A stretch of 64,000 nt of DNA from Plasmodiophora brassicae (GCA_036867785.1 CP145428.1:124001-188000), one strand, 5' to 3'; positions 27,054-36,340 are shown, counted from the stretch's first letter. Notes: generated by a model not told the origin, from the letters alone. Numbers and translations: made by a program.

Positions 27054-30000
27054 TGTCACGACTGAGTCGTGTTGGCGACTCAGCCGGCACCAAATTGGGC
27101 TCCTTCGTCGTAGCGCACTAGGTACAATAAACGTCCACGGCGCGGACCGACCTCAGTCGGTCAATCCGTGTGGTTGACTCATCGTGTTCGGTCGTCACAT
27201 TTTGACCGACTAACCTTCTGTCGTCGTCTTGTCTCGACTCGTATCGTATTGTGCCGTATCGTATCGTATTGTGCCGTATCGTATCGTATTGTGCCGTATC
27301 GTATCGTATTGTGCCGTATCGTATCGTATTGTGCCGTATCGTACCGTGCCGTACCGACTAACCTTCTGTCGTCGTATTGTCTCGACTCGTTTCGTATTGT
27401 GCCGTATCGTATCGTATTGTGCCGTATCGTACCGTGCCGTACCGTTTCTATCGTTGGTACTGTATTGCATTCATGGCAGGAGGCGATGGGTCGATTCCGT
27501 CATTGGCGGACGACGTCCCATCGTCCGCGAATCCGGATGTTGCGGGTGCGTCGGATTTTGCTCTCGGTCCCCTGTCGCATCTGCACTTCGCGCGGGGTGT
27601 TCTGCCACTGGCGAATCATCTCCCTGCACGACCGCTCACCCCGCCTTCGCTCACTAGTACCGCTGCCGATTGGCCCGACGACTCTCTGTCCTGTTCGGAC
27701 CCTCACTCCCCGCCTGCCTTATCGTCCCTACACGTTTCTGCCGCCTCGACGTCTCTGCAGGACCCCGGCGGCGCGCCTCGGCATGACCCTGTCTCCTCGA
27801 CGTCGCAGCATATTGGCGCTTCGTCCGTTGGGGCTCGGGTGCCGGCGCCACGGGTGTCTCCGGGCCTACCCTTAACGTCTATTGTTGTCCAGTCACAAGA
27901 CATTCCGCGTTTTTCGGGAAGCGATGGTCTGTCGACGACGCGTTGGTTGACTGCGTTCTCTCGGATCACCCAGACATCGTTAACGTCTACAAGTCCTCTA
28001 TCCGGCGATGTGCAATGTGTCTTAACGACAGCCTTGCAAGGTCAGGCCCTTGAGACTTACCTCGACTTGCCTGCGGACGCGTCTATGGCGGACGTAGCGT
28101 CCGTCCTGCTCCATGACTTCCCGGGACCTTCGTTCAAGCAGGTTGAAGCGCAGTTTGACAACATGAAGCAGACTGCAGGTGTCGCTCACCACGCACTGGC
28201 ATTCCAACGCTTGTACAAGCACCTTCAACGGCTTGACCCATTTGTACAGACTCAATCCGGCCCGCTTGGCGGAAAAGTTCCGCCTCTCGTTGAACCCTGC
28301 GCTCTCCGAAGCGCTGTTCTTCTACAACTTCAGAGACTACGACAAAGTTCTCGAGATGGCGGTTCATCTTGAGTCGAAATACCCAATCGCCGCCATCAAC
28401 GCTGGCGGTGATGCAGGGGCACAACGCCTGGCTTGCCACTATTGTCGCGAAGTTGGGCATTTTATTGCGTCCTGCCCGAAGAGGCCACCGTGCCCGCACT
28501 GTCATAAGGTTGGCCACCGCTCATCGCTGTGTCCCGAGCGGACCGGCAACCCTCTCCGCGTCACTGATCTGTTCCTTATGACGTCTCCCTCAATACCGCA
28601 TCTATTGGTATCGGTACGCCTCGTTATCGGCTCACGCCGTGTCAACACTATCGCCCTGTTAGACTGTGGTGCGACTTCCAACTTCATCGACTGGTCGTTC
28701 TGTCGTCACCATGAAATACCGGTTCGCTCTAAATCGCGTGCCATTCCTGTTCGCGTCATCGACGGGCGACACCTGTCTCCAGTAACTCAGGAAACCGTCC
28801 CGCTACGTGCTACCGTCGGCGGATGTTTCGACAGCGATGTCGTCCTGAACATGATCCACTCGCCTCAACACCCTGTCATTCTTGGGCTGCCTTGGTTGGC
28901 GGATACAAGCCCAGATATCGATTGGCGTCAGCGCCGCCTACAGCGCCGCGGAGATACCCTCGTGGGGATCCGTACAGGAGACGTCCATGAGTCTGGGTCC
29001 TTCGTCTCTTCGGCGGGAACAGGAGACGTCCATGGGTCTGGGTCCTTCGTCTCTTCGGCGGGACCATTTGCAACAGTAAAGCGCAAGGATAGTCTCTCAG
29101 CTGGGGTCTCACCTCCTGCACGAAGCGTTCCTGCGCCTGCGTGTGCCATCCCTTCAGCTGAATCACTCGAAACGTTGCCGCTTACATCCGTGTTTGTCGA
29201 CGGCAAGCTGGCTTCCGTAGCTAATGACGACCACCCGGAGTGCCACATTGCCACTGCTGCCGTCGACGACAGGCCGAGTCCTTCCGCTTTCGATTATGGT
29301 ATCCCGGGGGTCGCCGCCTTCAATGACACTGTTGCCACCAGCCGCACCGATCTCTTATCATTGCCCCGTTCAGGCTCCGAGTCCACGCCCCTTATGTCCT
29401 CCTTCCGGAACTGGGGCCCCGTTCGACGAAGGGTGAAACGGTCTCTCCCGCCGCCTCCCTCCAATGGTGGCTTCCGAGACGGCCACAGCCTCAATCTTCT
29501 GATGTTCGCAACCTTTGTCGCCCTGGCCTGGATCCTAGTTGGGTGGCCGTATTTTCCAATAGCACAGCTGTGTACGAGCGCCTCTGCGGAGCCCCCGCCC
29601 TTGAATGCGCCCGCCGAGTCCTTCTTTGCACCTTTTGCTACGTTAGAGGATGACCAGGCCTCATCAACCTCGATCGCGTTTCTCAACAACGATCTCATGT
29701 TCTTGGACGCCGCCGCACGTGCGTTTGCCCACAAGCTACATCGACGACAGATTCGTTCACCCCAATTCCTTAGCGAAGTTGATTTCGTTCATTGGACACC
29801 TGACGCCCTGACTCGTCGACTGGAGTACACACTGTCGCCTAATGATGAAGCAGTTCTTGCTAGGCCTCACCAAATGCTTCAACCCAGACAAGCCCGCAGC
29901 CCGTTCCCGGTGCGGCTAGAAGGGGACTATTATGTCACGACTGAGTCGTGTTGGCGACTCAGCCGGCACCAAATTGGGCTCCTTCGTCGTAGCGCACTAG

Positions 30001-30078
30001 GTACAATAAACGTCCCCGGCGCGGACCGACCTCAGTCGGTCAATCCGTGTGGTTGACTCATCGTGTTCGGTCGTCACA
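27054..30078 (+). mobile_element. Non-autonomous Gypsy family B element (gag + protease; RT and IN deleted)
   Basis: 146-bp LTRs at 27054-27199 and 29933-30078 with one mismatch, TSD TAATC, PPT AGAAGGGGA. Gag and LLDCGAT protease are homologous to family A; only scraps of RH and the chromodomain end remain. Confidence 0.95.
27239..27445 (+). repeat. Tandem 20-bp repeat (TCGTATCGTATTGTGCCGTA)n in the family B leader
   Basis: About five consecutive units followed by a second shorter block. Confidence 0.9.
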
Positions 30079-31189
30079 TAATCGGTCGGCTGCCAGGCGT
30101 CTCAAATGGAGTTTGTAGGAGGATATGAATGGGGAGTGTTCTACTCCGCATAGTCCTTTCTTGGCCGCCCGTTTGGCCAGTTTGTCGATTTCTTCGCTGT
30201 GCCCTATTTCAAGGAATTTCCTTCTGCGGGGGGTGGCGGAGTCCGAGTCTGAGTCATCGTCGCTGCTGCTATCAGAGTCGTTGGGCTCGCTGGGCTCTAT
30301 TTGGATGGGGTGGGTTTTGTCTACGTAGGCGGGTATTGGATTCTCACTGCTACTGTCCGTGTCGGAATGGTCGTAGTTGGTAGGAGAGGGCGGTGTCTGG
30401 TTTTGGATTTCTTTCAGTGTAAGACACGGGGGTTGCGAGTTGGCACAGTCATTCATCTTTTCACCGTCTGCTTCCGATAGGTCCTTGCGGTTTTCTACAG
30501 GTGTTCTCGGTTATGGTTTTGTTTCTGCACTGGGCTCAGGTCTTGTGTGCTTCCGCAGTCGCTTTGTGCTTCGGTGTCGTCCGTGGTTTCCCAGCGGGCT
30601 GCTCGGAGCTGGTTCGTCTTTCGGTAATGGCCAATGGGACGTGGCTAGGGATGAAGTGTACGTGTACCTCATTGTTGTTCGCTACCAGTTGGGCCAGTTT
30701 ATCTGCGCAGGCTGCCACCTCGTCATGTACCCTGTTGGGTCTTGTTGGGAGGGCCTGTAGTTGTCTGATCCTCGATAAAGAGTCCGAAAATATGTGTACT
30801 TTGGTGTCTTTGACGTCTTGTTCGGCGGCTGTGTCCAGGCCACATCCTAGTAATGAGTTCCGTCTCGTAACTGGATTGCACTATGATGGAGCTAAGTGCA
30901 GTTTCCCTTCCTCTGTAGGCGGGTCGGTCCTGTTATCAATATACAGGGCGGCTGCCCCTGCATTTTCTCCCGGTGTAAGGCTTCCGTCAGTCCATATTTC
31001 TACTGGTGCTTCTTGCGGTAGTAGTTCCCCTGCAAGGTGTTTGTCTATAGCCTCTGCTCTAGAACTTGTGTGGAATTGGACTCGGTAGAGGTTTTCTAGT
31101 ATCTGCTCGTCGATTTTTACTTTCGGGTGGACGTCCGTGTACGCTCTGGGCATGTATTCAGAGAGGGTATTTTCCATTATTTTGGGCAA

Positions 31190-33637
31190 CGTTCAGGAAA
31201 ATAACCCTCCCTCAAGGCAAAATAAAGCGCAGGCAACCAGCAACCAGGCAGGCAACCAGGTTGTCAACCAGGGACCGCAAGCAACCATGGGCCGCGCAAT
31301 CACTCGGAGTGCGTCGCGGATTGGGAACCCTCAGCCTGTCGCTCGAGCCGCCTCCCCGACCGGTGATTCGCACGCCTTCGCCATGGCACGGCAACGCGAT
31401 CGGCGCCGTCCCCGCACGAAACGTCACCGGCTGCCGGCGTCCCAGGTTGAGGCCATCAACGCGCTCGCGGAATCCGGTGTCCTCGCCGCCATGAATCGGT
31501 ATGGCTTGGCCATTCTCAACGAACCACTCAACTTGTTCGAGAGGACGGGCACCGGTGTGGAGAACACCAAGAGGGCTTACGCGAAACACTGGAGAGGCTT
31601 ATCGACGTTCTTTGCTGTCATTGGCGACTACGACTCGATGCTGATTCTGGATCCGCGTATCGCCAATGACGCCGCGTGCCCGTCGATGAAGCTGGACAGC
31701 ATCCGGTTGTATTTGGACTACAAGCTGCTCCCACCGGGGACCCCGATGTTCGGTGCATCTGGACGAGCATTGCATACGGCAACGGGCGAACAGCTGATCG
31801 CTGAGGGCGGGTGGAACGACCCGAAGATCTGCGAGCAACTGGGCAGCGCCGTCTTCGCCATCCATGTCGAGCGTGGGCACACTGGCGACTACTTGGAGCC
31901 ATGTTCGAACTGCGTCGCTCTATATGCTGACGACCGTTCGACGCCTGGCTGCGAACGCCATCAGTATTGTCGACGGATTTGGCGATCTGGCAATCCGCGT
32001 CGACATCCTGACATGGGCAAGGCGTTGCAGCGTCAGGCTCGAGCACATGCCGCCTACGTCCCGCAGGGCGACAGCGCGCTGTCGCCATTCGAAGTCGCTC
32101 GCCTTCGGAACTACGTGTTCGAGTATGGTGGCAATGACTGGAGACACCTGGGGATGTACGCCATGTTCCGGATCGGTATCGACCTGGGCCTTCGTTCTGA
32201 CGAGCTGTGCTCGATTCGGTATGATGACTTCCTACCGGCGCTGACGACGGTCCGTGACGATGGGGTCGTTGAGTCCCTTGGAATCAAGGTCTTCGGCAAG
32301 GACCAGAAGTGGCGCACTCGAATCCTGTTCCGGAACGACGCGATCCCATCTCTGTGTCCCGTGCGACATCTGTTGGGTTATATCGCGGCGTTCTCCATCA
32401 AGGAGGAGTATATCTTCCGTGATGATCCTGCAGATCCATCGAAACCGATCTCTTATGACGCGTTCAACAATTGGGTCAGCGACACTTGCTCTCATCTGTT
32501 CGAGCGAGGTGGCCCATGGGGGACACACGTCATGCGCAAGTCCCATTACCATGACGGCCGATGGCGTGGCGCATCGTTCGGGGACCTGATGAAGTCCGCT
32601 GGTCATACATCGGTCCCCAATGCACTCCGGTATTACCAAGACGCGGACACGGTCTACCACATCGCACTTCTGAACCCTCAAGTGAAGCAGTTCACAACGA
32701 TGATGTCGCCATGGCGCTCTACCCACATTGACAATTTCAGCATGGCGGCTGCACATGCTGCCGGATCCAGGACCACAACCACGTTGTTCGATCTCGCGGA
32801 CCGGATGTCCAACGACCTGGATCTGTACTCAGAGGAGAATGTCACGCTGCGTGTCTTTGGGGAGAAGTTGCTTCAGAACCCGTCGACTAACAGCGTTGAC
32901 CAGCAGATCGATGAGCTGCTGTCGAGTGTTCCGGCGGACAAGGCCGAGCAATTGCGTGCGTTGATCAGCAAGAAGTTGTTGGAGGTCGCGACGTCAGTCC
33001 AAGCACCTGCTCCCCACAATGCCGTTGCTGCCGCCGTCGATGGCAGTGTTGCTGGCGGTGCTGAATCAGGTGGGCAAGCGTGTCACGATACCATGAATGG
33101 ACAAGCAAGCGCCCAACGGAACGGTGGGTCTGTGCCGCAAGCGAATATTCCGCCGGAAGCGCCGCTGCCGAACCCTGTCGCCAAACGTCGCGGGGGGACC
33201 TTCGATGCGCCATCCCGTGGTTTGCTGAAAGATTGCGGCAGTGCCAGGGAACGGCTGGACATCGTCCTTCGTGTTGCTGATGAGCTCAAAGAACGGCAAT
33301 CAAAAGAGCTGACAGAAACGTGTCGGCAGTTTCAAAGTACAGCGGTGAAGCCTGTCATCGCCTGCTTCCAGCGGCATCACGGGTCCAATCCTGAGGCGTT
33401 TCTGGCGCAATGGCCAACATTCTTTCCGTCCCGATTCGCCTACAAGTGTTGCGACGCGTCTACCGACGATTGCGGTACTATCAAGTCGAACGCCAGGTCT
33501 ACAGGGTCCTAACGCCCATACATACACAGTCAGGCATGTCACCTTGTGTTGCACCATTTATAGCGGGATTGATCCTCGGACTAGTGTACGCGCATTTTTT
33601 GTGACCGCAAGCAACCACGTTCAACCACCCTCGTTAC
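31190..33637 (+). mobile_element. Tyrosine-recombinase DNA transposon (Crypton-like), 2448 bp, inserted in the LINE
   Basis: Flanked by GGCAA direct repeats (31185-31189, 33638-33642). No TIRs, LTRs or RT. Removing it restores the LINE reading PYLPKIMEN. Confidence 0.88.
31287..33512 (+). CDS. Tyrosine recombinase (741 aa from ATG 31287), intronless and uninterrupted
   Basis: Catalytic set GLRSDEL (R), GKDQK (K), LCPVRHL, THVMRKS (HxxR), AGH (H), ALRYYQ (Y). Also a Cys/His cluster CSNC..CERHQYC and a distinct C-terminal domain. Confidence 0.9.
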   Translation: MGRAITRSASRIGNPQPVARAASPTGDSHAFAMARQRDRRRPRTKRHRLPASQVEAINALAESGVLAAMNRYGLAILNEPLNLFERTGTGVENTKRAYAKHWRGLSTFFAVIGDYDSMLILDPRIANDAACPSMKLDSIRLYLDYKLLPPGTPMFGASGRALHTATGEQLIAEGGWNDPKICEQLGSAVFAIHVERGHTGDYLEPCSNCVALYADDRSTPGCERHQYCRRIWRSGNPRRHPDMGKALQRQARAHAAYVPQGDSALSPFEVARLRNYVFEYGGNDWRHLGMYAMFRIGIDLGLRSDELCSIRYDDFLPALTTVRDDGVVESLGIKVFGKDQKWRTRILFRNDAIPSLCPVRHLLGYIAAFSIKEEYIFRDDPADPSKPISYDAFNNWVSDTCSHLFERGGPWGTHVMRKSHYHDGRWRGASFGDLMKSAGHTSVPNALRYYQDADTVYHIALLNPQVKQFTTMMSPWRSTHIDNFSMAAAHAAGSRTTTTLFDLADRMSNDLDLYSEENVTLRVFGEKLLQNPSTNSVDQQIDELLSSVPADKAEQLRALISKKLLEVATSVQAPAPHNAVAAAVDGSVAGGAESGGQACHDTMNGQASAQRNGGSVPQANIPPEAPLPNPVAKRRGGTFDAPSRGLLKDCGSARERLDIVLRVADELKERQSKELTETCRQFQSTAVKPVIACFQRHHGSNPEAFLAQWPTFFPSRFAYKCCDASTDDCGTIKSNARSTGS

Positions 33638-36340
33638 GGCAAATAAGGCGTCACTATTCCGAGGGGGGTCCAGCCATCGCCCTCCCCATCCCATGTGTCG
33701 TACTCTTGTCCTAATAGGGTGTCGTTAGCAATTGCCGATAGTACCGCCGTAGTTGTACTTGTGCATATGGCATCTCGTAGTAACGGAAATCCTGTCATTG
33801 CGTGCAGCAGAGGTGTTGGCGTGGAGCAGAACGCACCAGCATATGCTCTCATGTACTCATTGTATGCAATTTCTAACGGGCGAAGAACGCTTTTCATTTC
33901 TTTCCCAGTTTCCGCTCCTAGTATCGGCAGGTAGTAGTTTAGTTTCCCCCCAATGAATCCTTTGCATATTTGATGGTATGTCTTGATGGGAAAATTGTAT
34001 TTTAGGAGTGACCTGACTGCTCTGCACATTTGCCTGATATTGGCTGCTATGCCTGTGAGGCCGATCATCATCATCCCGCTTCTGTCTTCCTCATTTGCGC
34101 GCAACGTGATTCCCAGGTACTTAACTTCTGGGGCCGTCGTAATTCTGGTTTTGTTCGTCTTTAGGCAGTCATCTGGGCTATACTCATTGAAAAGTATCAC
34201 CGTTTTGTCCCAGTTGATTTTGATGTGATTGTCTTCACACCATTTCATTAAGGCTGCGTTCTTCCTACGCAAGATGCGTTTCACCTGTTTCTTTGTTTGT
34301 CCGGTTGCCCAAGGGGCGATGTCATCAACGTAGATGTTGCTAGTGTCTTCTTCAAGGGGAGCATCATATACATATATTGCCCATAGGAGTACACTCAGAC
34401 TTGACCCTTGTGGGATCCCGCTCGTTTGCTTTCGTTGTCTGGACGTGGTTCCGCGGTGTGATACTTCAAATTTCCTGTTTGAGAGCCATTCGTCAATTAT
34501 TAGTATTAGGTAGGGGTCAATTTGCATCCTTCGCAACTTTTCGATTAGCTTAACATGTTTCACTCTGTCGAATGCTTTTGTGAAGTCATAGAATATGGTT
34601 GCGAACTGTTTGTCTTTAACTGTCGCGCACCCCGCGTGGTGAAGTAGGCGTATCAGCGCCTGGGACGTGTTATGGGCCTCCCTACCCCCTTTCTGGTTTG
34701 GTGGTAGGTGTTTTTCGGCTTGGTGGCGTAATGGGGTTTCAATTATCGATTCGACTAGTTTGGCTAAGTTAGACAGGAGGGCTATCGGTCGGAATTCGCC
34801 TGGCTTTGCCTTCGGTAGGGGCCGGACTTTGGCGATTTTTAAGTCGTCTGGGAATTTTCCATCTTTGACGATGTCGTTGTTGATGGCTGCCAGGATATAT
34901 TCCGCTGTTGTTTCTTCTTCGCATGCTCTTTTGAGGAGCACGTTTGTGATGCCGTCTACTCCTCCGGCGGAACGAATTTTGGCTCGCTTCAGGGCTTTTT
35001 CAAGTTCTCTTCGAGTGATAGGTGTTGGCCTATTGCTTTCTTTCTCTGTTTGGAGAGCTTTAATTAACGCGTCGTGTTCCATCCTTTCTTTCTCTGTCGT
35101 TTCAAGGTCGTTATCGTCGTATATGCTGGTAAATTTTGTTGCTATTTCTTCAGCCTCCTCGTCGGCTCTTTTGGATTTGATTGTTCGTGGCGTTCGTTTG
35201 CTGTTAAGTTCAGGGTTGATCTCTCTTATTAGTTTCCACGTCGTGGCGCCTGTGGAGTCAGCAACCGCTGTCTCTGCCAGTTCAGTGTATCGTTGTACCT
35301 TGGCTGTTTTGTATTCTCTCAATACTTCAATGCTTTCATTACGGAGCGTTGTTTTCAGGGCCTCCATGTAGGCCTCAGGTTTTTGGTCTCGTCGCGCTTT
35401 TTGGAGTGTTTCTTTCGCCTGTTCTTTCCTGCGACAGGCGTCTCGGAGGCCTGTAGTCCAGAATTTGTGGTTTTCTCGGGGTGTTTCTTTATAAGCAGTG
35501 CTATTTCTGATTATGCTGCTTAGTTTGCTCAGGCTCGCTTCGGCGATGTTTTCGTATTCAAGCCATAAGGTGATGTTCTCGGTCGTAAGGTTGATGTCGA
35601 CTGTCGATTTGTGGTCATTTCCATCGAAAAGTGATTCGGGTTCGGTGATTGTTAGTGCAGTCTCCATAATCGTGAATTTGTGGTCGCTATCCAGGTCGGG
35701 ACCTAGCCTCCATGCAAGGATGTTTTCGCGCGCGTCACTATTGCACATGCCAATGTCAAGCACACTCCCTTTTTCCTCGTTAGCGGGGTCGTATCTAGTG
35801 GACTGCGTTATATCGTTCAGGACTTCGAACTCAATAAGGATTGGGTCTAGGTAGGGTCTTCGTGCTCTAACCGAGGCATCTAGTCGGCAGTCCCGTGTGT
35901 TGAGGTCGCCTGTGATGATTGTAGGTCTGTTTTCACTTGTGACAAGCCGATCTACTTCGTTCCAGTATGCTTTGCGTGTTCGCTGCTTAACGTCAGGGGG
36001 ATGTAGGGGTGTATGAGTAGCGTTTCGCCATTGATTAGGACCATTTGTGTTGTTATCCTTTTGTTTTCAAATTTCTGTAGCTGCTTCGCTTTGATTCGTT
36101 CTGCGTTTATGTTCTTTGTCCAGAATATTCCCGACTGGGTATTCAGGTCCGAGAATTCGTAGTTGGGGAAGTGGGCGATCTTCCTTCTAGGGCCTAGTTC
36201 AGATATGCATAGTATGTGGATTTTGTTCAGTTTCGCGAATTCTGCCAGTCGCTCAGCTTTGAGTGTAGTCAGTGTCCGGGCGTTCCACTGTCCGACGTTT
36301 AGCCGGTTCTGGTCAGCGTCTTGTGAATTTGAATCCTGTA
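33638..36340 (-). pseudogene. LINE ORF, endonuclease + reverse transcriptase portion (frameshift near 35990)
   Basis: ORFs 35952..37217 and 33634..35763 carry APE and RT motifs. The frame continues as LPKIMENT at 31189 once the YR element is removed. Confidence 0.88.

What the first reader, a model, noticed from the sequence alone, without database searches (positions are those of the whole stretch)
31178..33650. Intact Crypton-like tyrosine-recombinase transposon with att-like TT-N5-AA sites at target and circle junction
Seen: a 2448-bp element with one open YR gene and no RT or TIR lies between GGCAA repeats. The reconstructed empty LINE site is TTATTT-TGGGC-AAATAA, a perfect 6-bp inverted repeat around a 5-bp spacer. 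Joining the element ends gives CGTT-ACGGC-AACG, an inverted repeat in the same register whose spacer shares the 3' GGC. Known: tyrosine recombinases act on inverted binding arms around a short overlap, and Cryptons are proposed to move via circles with short direct repeats. Inference: this insertion shows the crossover-site rule of a compact and possibly active eukaryotic site-specific integrase.
Basis: partly seen in the sequence, partly recalled or inferred. Interest (0 to 1): 0.75.

Follow-up and report, generated by a model that had tools for sequence, protein, structure and literature searches.

The report
Active Crypton transposon with corrected junctions
This is a young, still-moving jumping gene of the clubroot parasite that encodes only a Cre-like enzyme, and its true ends reveal a landing rule, shared by three sister families, that points to how this poorly understood class of transposons copies itself.

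Summary
A 99.4% copy on C14 and empty LINE paralogs place it at 31177-33653 (2477 bp). Public contigs give an empty C14 allele in two studies and two further insertions that are empty in this genome. True rule: target TA-N5-CA|N-T(A/C); joined ends TA-AGGCGT-CA-T-TA, 14-bp arms (10/14), one base longer than the target. Three sister families (25-36% protein identity) follow it: left TA 12 of 16 sites, right N-T 16 of 16; right-end spacer fixed in 16 of 17 copies, left spacer unlike it in 14 of 15. The protein is a Cre-fold recombinase with intact catalytic residues, CryptonS-like, host Plasmodiophora brassicae. Best mechanism (inferred): one-strand exchange beside the 2-bp match, resolved by replication, as in bacterial strand-biased elements. 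No circle was seen. Earlier scan notes report other Cryptons in this genome, none this rule.

The parts
31177..33653 (+). Complete element (family A), 2477 bp, no target-site duplication
   Evidence: Second copy L002 same length, 13 substitutions; empty LINE paralogs
31168..31176 (+). Left half of the target left in place: TA, 5-base target spacer, shared CA
   Evidence: Matches empty paralogs L015/L016 except that they read TC for TA; TA at this offset in 12 of 16 sites
31178..31191 (+). Left 14-bp binding arm (inferred recombinase half-site)
   Evidence: 10/14 complementary to 33632-33645
31234..31287 (+). Five subterminal CAACCA repeats, same orientation as the two at the right end; candidate accessory binding sites
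   Evidence: 5 left, 2 right, 1 in 2257 interior bases, none on the other strand; each sister family has its own hexamer
31287..33512 (+). 741-aa tyrosine recombinase: Cre-like core with R303, K338, H414, R417, H440, Y449, a Cys/His insertion and a separate conserved C-terminal domain
   Evidence: (PF00589 E 0.0049, below cut-off)
33612..33627 (+). Two subterminal CAACCA repeats at the right end
33632..33645 (+). Right 14-bp binding arm ending in TA
   Evidence: identical in L002
33646..33653 (+). Fixed 8-base right-end spacer ending in the shared CA; crossover lies directly after it
   Evidence: Same in both genomic copies and in run contigs with other flanks, whose loose ends start behind it
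33654..33659 (+). Right half of the target (N-TA arm)
   Evidence: Empty paralogs; N-T in 16 of 16 sites
33654..36066 (-). Host LINE, 5' part (endonuclease and reverse transcriptase frame)
   Evidence: PF14529, PF00078; 98% to L016
30079..31176 (-). Host LINE, 3' part
   Evidence: 94-96% to L015/L016

Best explanation
A young, polymorphic, YR-only (Crypton-type, CryptonS-like) DNA transposon of Plasmodiophora brassicae. SHOWN: it inserts without duplication at TA-N5-CA|N-T(A/C); its joined ends would form arm-TA, 9 bp, TA-arm against 8 bp in the target; the right-end spacer is a fixed part of the element while the left junction keeps the target's spacer; three sister families do the same with their own 2-bp match (AA, CT, CA). 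INFERRED: the recombinase binds the arms like Cre; because donor and target overlaps differ in sequence and by one base in length except for the 2 bp beside the crossover, only the strand cut next to that match (the bottom strand, by the usual tyrosine-recombinase polarity) is normally exchanged, and the Holliday junction is resolved by replication. Excision then copies out a circle that always carries the right-end spacer and can leave the donor in place; integration puts target spacer left and element spacer right. Same-strand subterminal hexamers may set this polarity through the C-terminal domain (speculative). Element and junction geometry about 0.95; the one-strand, replicative mechanism about 0.55.
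For: Ends. Filled/empty pairs: C20 against L015/L016, family B against L096/L097 and family C against L083-L088, C14 against contigs of runs X12 and X13, two studies; C12 and C11 sites filled in runs and empty in G000. Tally: TA at one offset in 12 of 16 left flanks (at most 2 at any of 12 other offsets; binomial p about 1e-10 even at 8% background), T at +2 in 16 of 16 and TA in 13 of 16 right flanks. Right spacer invariant within family in 16 of 17 right ends in G000; left spacer differs from it in 14 of 15 filled left ends. Three family-D sites with a mismatched dinucleotide all keep the target's letters left and the element's right, placing the crossover after it. Cre structures are the top 13 fold matches. 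Precedent: IntDOT makes its first exchange beside a 2-bp match (PMC2817482, passages); Tn6283/SE circles come from one strand with the donor retained (PMC5991714 passages; PMC9345347 Discussion); a Chlamydomonas Crypton gains copies despite excising (PMC9977147, passages).
Against: No circle junction was listed in four runs (contigs drop rare forms). The C14 copy carries the element's spacer at both junctions and the 4 target letters are replaced by 5 (26), which one-strand exchange alone does not give; it needs a second exchange plus repair, an earlier footprint or a tandem intermediate. Four of 16 left flanks lack TA; arm symmetry is strong only in family A (10/14; B 4, C 6, D 6). Copies within a family are close kin, so a fixed spacer is expected under any model in which it is simply the element's end. 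The filled left junction at C12 was not seen and that at C11 is read from a two-contig consensus (28 of 30 letters explained). A diverged family-C copy (L044) has other ends and was left out.
Confidence: 0.55

Rival explanations
1. Goodwin-type conservative cut-and-paste: both strands cross over in or beside the 2-bp match, the fixed 8 bases are just the element's end, and copy gain comes from ordinary repair or replication timing.
For: Most economical reading of 14 of 15 junctions; matches the donor-motif/target model and the clean excisions reported for CryptonF-1_cRei (PMC9977147, passages) and Starships (PMC10104507, passages).
Against: Tyrosine recombinase sites are described with 6-8 bp between arms (PMC3212892); the match is imperfect at 4 sites yet letters never swap sides; it does not explain replacement of the whole target spacer at C14 (26) or the conserved one-base offset between donor and target.
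Confidence: 0.27
2. CTnDOT/Tn916-type two-strand exchange with heteroduplex coupling sequences, followed by replication or biased repair.
For: 2-bp match at one edge plus about 5 free bases is the IntDOT layout (PMC2817482); C14 shows that the whole spacer can be exchanged.
Against: Unbiased resolution should leave the target's spacer at the right end, or a former flank's spacer at the left, in about half of insertions; right spacers are invariant in 16 of 17.
Confidence: 0.16
3. One reading: 2448-bp element between GGCAA repeats, TT-N5-AA target and circle junction.
For: The letters exist and the reconstruction keeps the LINE frame open.
Against: Second copy extends past both GGCAA words in unrelated flanks; real empty alleles lack the 24 bases; four targets show a different consensus.
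Confidence: 0.01

Closest known systems
CryptonS (Kojima and Jurka 2011, PMC3212892; passages and Additional file 1 read)
   Same: YR-only, about 2.5-3.7 kb, no GCR1_C, conserved C-terminal region; named relatives of this protein are in the oomycetes Saprolegnia and Aphanomyces. The listed termini TATGG and TTACTG are the reverse complements of the right arms of sister families D and C.
   Different: Rhizarian host; relatives also in chytrids; family A has no TATGG; only 2 bp are shared across the crossover rather than a 5-6 bp direct repeat. No labelled CryptonS protein was available for a tree.
CryptonF-1_cRei of Chlamydomonas (PMC9977147 and its preprint; passages)
   Same: Active; fixed donor motif at one end, related target, no true duplication; copy number rises.
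   Different: 5-bp near-identical target (CAYCG) and CryptonF group; no bipartite arm/spacer geometry reported in the passages read.
Starship Hephaestus (PMC10104507 passages; 10.64898/2026.09.21.753150 first quarter)
   Same: Eukaryotic YR element, bipartite target TTAC(N7)A, circle shown by junction reads.
   Different: Giant cargo element with DUF3435 captain; no DUF3435 hit here; different spacing; clean excision.
CTnDOT / IntDOT (PMC2817482, passages)
   Same: Overlap with a conserved 2-bp match on one side and free bases on the other; first exchange beside the match.
   Different: Bacterial conjugative element; coupling sequence varies from site to site, whereas here the donor spacer is fixed and one base longer than the target's.
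Strand-biased circularizing elements SE-6283/SE-6945 (PMC5991714 passages; PMC9345347 passages and Discussion)
   Same: YR elements whose circle derives from one strand, whose spacer ends up on one side after integration, and which can leave spacer footprints.
   Different: Bacterial, four core genes with two YRs, near site-specific; here one gene, and the strand bias is inferred from junctions only.

Membership tests
Crypton | Single tyrosine recombinase with catalytic R-H-R-Y, no other transposase | tested here: met
   R303, K338 invariant and H414, R417, H440, Y449 at least 90% conserved in 74 sequences; Cre fold; one long ORF (2)
Crypton | No reverse transcriptase, LTR or long TIR | tested here: met
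   only a 14-bp imperfect arm pair (55)
Crypton | No target-site duplication | tested here: met
   Filled/empty pairs
Crypton | 4-6 bp direct repeats at both termini | tested here: not met
   2 bp shared at C20, C11, C12; 14 bp at C14. Published repeats may be arm matches, not tested
Crypton | Circular intermediate (proposed) | tested here: inconclusive
   No go-back joint in contigs of 4 runs; contigs drop rare forms
CryptonS | No GCR1_C domain; conserved C-terminal region | tested here: met
   No GCR1_C in 22 scans; C-terminal block conserved among relatives; identity with the published CryptonS C-terminus not checked
CryptonS | TATGG termini in most members | tested here: not met
   Absent from family A ends; sister family D has its reverse complement as right arm
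CryptonS | YR phylogeny groups with named CryptonS proteins | not testable with these tools
   No labelled Repbase sequences; named hits are unannotated oomycete and chytrid proteins
CryptonF | C-terminal GCR1_C domain | tested here: not met
CryptonA/I | DUF3504-type YR without C-terminal domain | tested here: not met
   No DUF3504 hit; C-terminal domain present
Starship | DUF3435 captain, large cargo region | tested here: not met
   No DUF3435 hit; 2477 bp (55)
DIRS/Ngaro/VIPER | RT/RNase H and split or inverted long terminal repeats | tested here: not met
   Complete uninterrupted copies of four families are 2.5-2.7 kb (55, 78); no RT inside the element (7)
Tn916/CTnDOT coupling-sequence elements | Donor spacer varies with the previous flank | tested here: not met
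   Right spacer fixed in 16 of 17 ends
SE strand-biased elements | Circle from one strand, donor retained | not testable with these tools
   Needs circle reads or an assay; junction pattern is compatible

The most novel reading that the evidence does not exclude
CryptonS-type elements are eukaryotic copy-out/paste-in transposons: a single Cre-like enzyme uses a donor joint mis-spaced by one base and polar subterminal repeats so that only one strand is exchanged and replication finishes the job. The published 'TATGG/TTACTG direct repeats' are then recombinase binding arms, published ends are off by a spacer, and the copy gain of active Cryptons is explained.
Probability: 0.35. Interest if true: 0.82.

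Novelty: new variant of a known kind. Interest (0 to 1): 0.62.

Why it matters
How Cryptons move has stayed a model since 2003, and the one observation of active copies found an unexplained gain in number (PMC9977147). Here four co-resident families give exact ends, real empty alleles, a shared arm/spacer geometry and an intact 741-aa enzyme in a 2.5-kb element, so nick positions, strand bias and circle sequence can be tested with short substrates. A one-gene integrase that needs 2 bp of match and a loose bipartite site would also be a tool lead, though with about 0.4 sites per kb it is not site-specific. The polymorphic insertions are markers among clubroot isolates.

Tried and rejected
My first reading of 6-bp arms around a 7-bp spacer was refined to TA|8 or 9 bp|TA once C14 and the sister families were compared; my first left end for family C was 5 bases too far in and was corrected by empty paralogs. 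Circle junction in public contigs: none listed. No RNA holder listed. Search for a third left flank with a degenerate pattern: no match; the pattern assumed both differing letters came from the flank. Element end in metagenome contigs: 0. Relatives in phage records and viral contigs: none. Testing the rule in a distant host: only 2 loci came back, too few to define ends. Word-index protein searches found 3 and 4 hits; the full scan found 921. ESM Atlas neighbours at 0.94-0.96 span oomycete, NDC10/GCR1, DUF3435 and DUF3504 clusters and do not pick a subgroup. No tree was built, for want of labelled references. Contig depths were not used as copy numbers. Literature searches without a description of this element or rule: 18 (0 papers), 70 (1, unrelated by listing), 77 (0), 81 (the SE paper and a review not read), 17, 47, 69, 82 (listings); the 2026 clubroot pangenome preprint has no 'Crypton' or 'recombinase' in its main text. 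Goodwin 2003 and Repbase entries were not available and preprint supplements are closed, so either may already note parts of this.

Full report
Observation. The window holds one open frame at 31287-33512 (741 aa) inside an antisense LINE whose upstream part encodes endonuclease and reverse transcriptase. The genome (G000, 25.3 Mb, 20 contigs) holds a second full copy on C14 that matches window 31175-33656 at 99.4% in unrelated flanks, so the shared unit runs past both GGCAA words. Two LINE paralogs without the element read TTTTC-CA-CTA(A/T)TC with an open frame. The element is 31177-33653, 2477 bp. The two copies differ at 13 positions; 8 lie in the frame, 6 silent and 2 replacing.

TTATTT and AAATAA are the outer parts of a 14-bp imperfect inverted repeat at the element's ends (31178-31191 and 33632-33645; 10 of 14 match; 0.00047 of 200,000 random pairs from the element reach this).

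Mobility. Contigs of four runs from four studies (4 of the 20 holders listed) were laid on the C14 locus. X2 and X3 carry the insertion; X12 and X13 have a contig across the empty site. Loose ends behind the element's last base gave a new right flank in X12 and a two-contig consensus in X13. The first maps to one place on C12; a degenerate pattern for the second maps to one place on C11, and the column-wise blend of the two flanks reproduces the X13 row at 30 of 30 letters. Both places are empty in G000. The family is therefore polymorphic at three sites at least. No circle joint was listed; contigs drop rare forms.

The rule. The four family-A targets read TA-N5-CA|N-T(A/C). The joined ends would read arm-TA, AGGCGT-CA-T, TA-arm: 9 bases between the TAs against 8 in the target. 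A protein search found further young families (best-stretch identity 28-37%, 25% over the length for C), B, C and D, with copies mostly 95-99.9% alike. Empty paralogs fix the insertion point for B (L096, L097) and C (L083-L088). All share the layout, with AA, CT and CA as the matched pair. Over 16 independent left flanks TA stands at one offset in 12 and at no other offset in more than 2; over 16 right flanks the second base is T in 16 and TA follows in 13 (background TA 0.029). Left out: the diverged copy L044, two 5'-truncated copies (L058, L064), an eroded end (L014), the D left flank on C9 that a C copy later hit; three C copies at one repeat site were counted once; the C11, C12 and C14 left flanks are the empty alleles. 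The right-end spacer is invariant within each family in 16 of 17 right ends (A 2, B 2, C 7 of 8, D 5). The left spacer differs from it in 14 of 15 filled left ends and equals the empty target in the three filled/empty pairs at C20, B and C. At three D sites the pair is mismatched, and each keeps the target's letters left and the element's right, so the crossover lies just after the pair. The exception is C14: the element's spacer stands at both junctions, 4 target letters are replaced by 5, and the stop codon of a 154-codon host frame changes from TAG to TAA. Each family also has its own hexamer 4-5 times at the left end and 1-2 times at the right, on one strand (CAACCA in A); none of up to 5000 interior draws per family reached the count, though the interior is coding and so an imperfect control. 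The A target is loose, about 0.4 per kb.

Protein. Pfam gives only a weak phage-integrase match (E 0.0049). A full scan found 921 relatives. In a 74-sequence alignment R303 and K338 are invariant and H414, R417, H440 and Y449 at least 90% conserved. The model (mean pLDDT 85.9) matches Cre in its top 13 ranks, E 1.5e-7 at best. An 85% relative and the cluster of a 42% relative are labelled Plasmodiophora brassicae, which I take as the host. Of 30 proteins looked up, named members of the other clusters are from Saprolegnia, Aphanomyces, the chytrids Zopfochytrium, Physocladia and Polyrhizophydium, and one bacterial-bin label; most have no taxon. No GCR1_C, DUF3504 or DUF3435 hit in 22 scans.

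Mechanism. Shown: ends, no duplication, bipartite target, one-base longer donor joint, fixed right spacer, crossover after a 2-bp match, polymorphism, intact active site. From established knowledge (recalled, no call): tyrosine recombinases cut the two strands at opposite edges of an overlap, and Cre's site has an 8-bp spacer with a 6-bp overlap. On that polarity the cut after the matched pair is on the bottom strand, and the pair is what the incoming end must anneal to. The top-strand exchange faces a mismatch and a length difference. If only the bottom strand is exchanged and replication resolves the junction, excision yields a circle that always has the right-end spacer and can spare the donor, and integration gives target spacer left, element spacer right, as seen. 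IntDOT makes its first exchange beside a 2-bp match (PMC2817482, passages); Tn6283 and SE-6945 circles come from one strand with the donor retained, and spacer footprints occur (PMC5991714, passages; PMC9345347, passages and Discussion). Against: no circle seen; C14 needs an extra step; a fixed end is also what a short-overlap cut-and-paste would leave. I put 0.55 on one-strand copy-out, 0.27 on conservative short-match crossover, 0.16 on two-strand coupling exchange.

Known kinds. It works like a Crypton and meets the YR-only, no-RT and no-duplication tests, but not the 4-6 bp direct-repeat test (PMC3212892, passages; PMC13465315, passages), so I file it as Crypton-type and CryptonS-like, not as a member of CryptonS. 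Additional file 1 of PMC3212892 (read whole) lists TATGG and TTACTG as CryptonS termini; these are the reverse complements of the right arms of D and C, which suggests that published repeats are binding arms. I could not test that. A bipartite target has precedent in the Starship Hephaestus (PMC10104507, passages), whose circle is now reported (10.64898/2026.09.21.753150, first quarter). An active Chlamydomonas Crypton gains copies for unexplained reasons (PMC9977147 and preprint, passages).

Novelty. Searches and the main text of a 2026 clubroot pangenome preprint (passages) gave no account of these elements or this geometry; Goodwin 2003, Repbase and preprint supplements were not seen. Earlier scan notes list other Crypton-type copies in this genome; none matched this protein or the rule. 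Verdict: a real, active element whose corrected junctions give a testable mechanism; new variant of a known kind, interest 0.62.

Noticed in passing
L069:2047-4164 (G000:C11): A 705-codon frame ends in this element's C-terminal domain (77% identity) fused behind unrelated sequence with repeated Cys-x-His motifs; no Pfam hit. Possible capture or domestication.
   Followed up: partly
L014:1501-1615 (G000:C9): The element's first 115 bases, with an eroded left arm, lead into unrelated sequence; the same flanks appear as loose ends in three runs.
   Followed up: partly
L002:1031-1495 (G000:C14): The second copy sits at the stop codon of a 154-codon host frame without Pfam match and leaves the protein unchanged.
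   Followed up: partly
L060 (G000:C9): A family-C copy inserted, in reverse, into the left junction of a family-D copy: one family's junction serves as another's target.
   Followed up: partly
L080-L088: Three family-C copies occupy the same site of a repeat whose six empty copies lie near contig ends; repeated targeting or co-duplication not resolved.
   Followed up: partly
L030-L032: Family B copies show two in-frame TGA five codons apart in the recombinase frame; a short intron or a shared lesion, not examined.
   Followed up: no
window:30878-30880 and 27362-30056: The host LINE has an in-frame stop in its 3' part, and it abuts a Ty3/Gypsy-like remnant with zinc knuckle and protease matches.
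   Followed up: no
run X13, left loose end: Two letters of the consensus are not explained by the two assumed flanks; one is the base after the TA arm and equals the element's base, as at C14.
   Followed up: partly
window:33588-33602: A GCATTTTT-TGTGA-like word about 60 bases from the right end is shared by families A, C and D.
   Followed up: no
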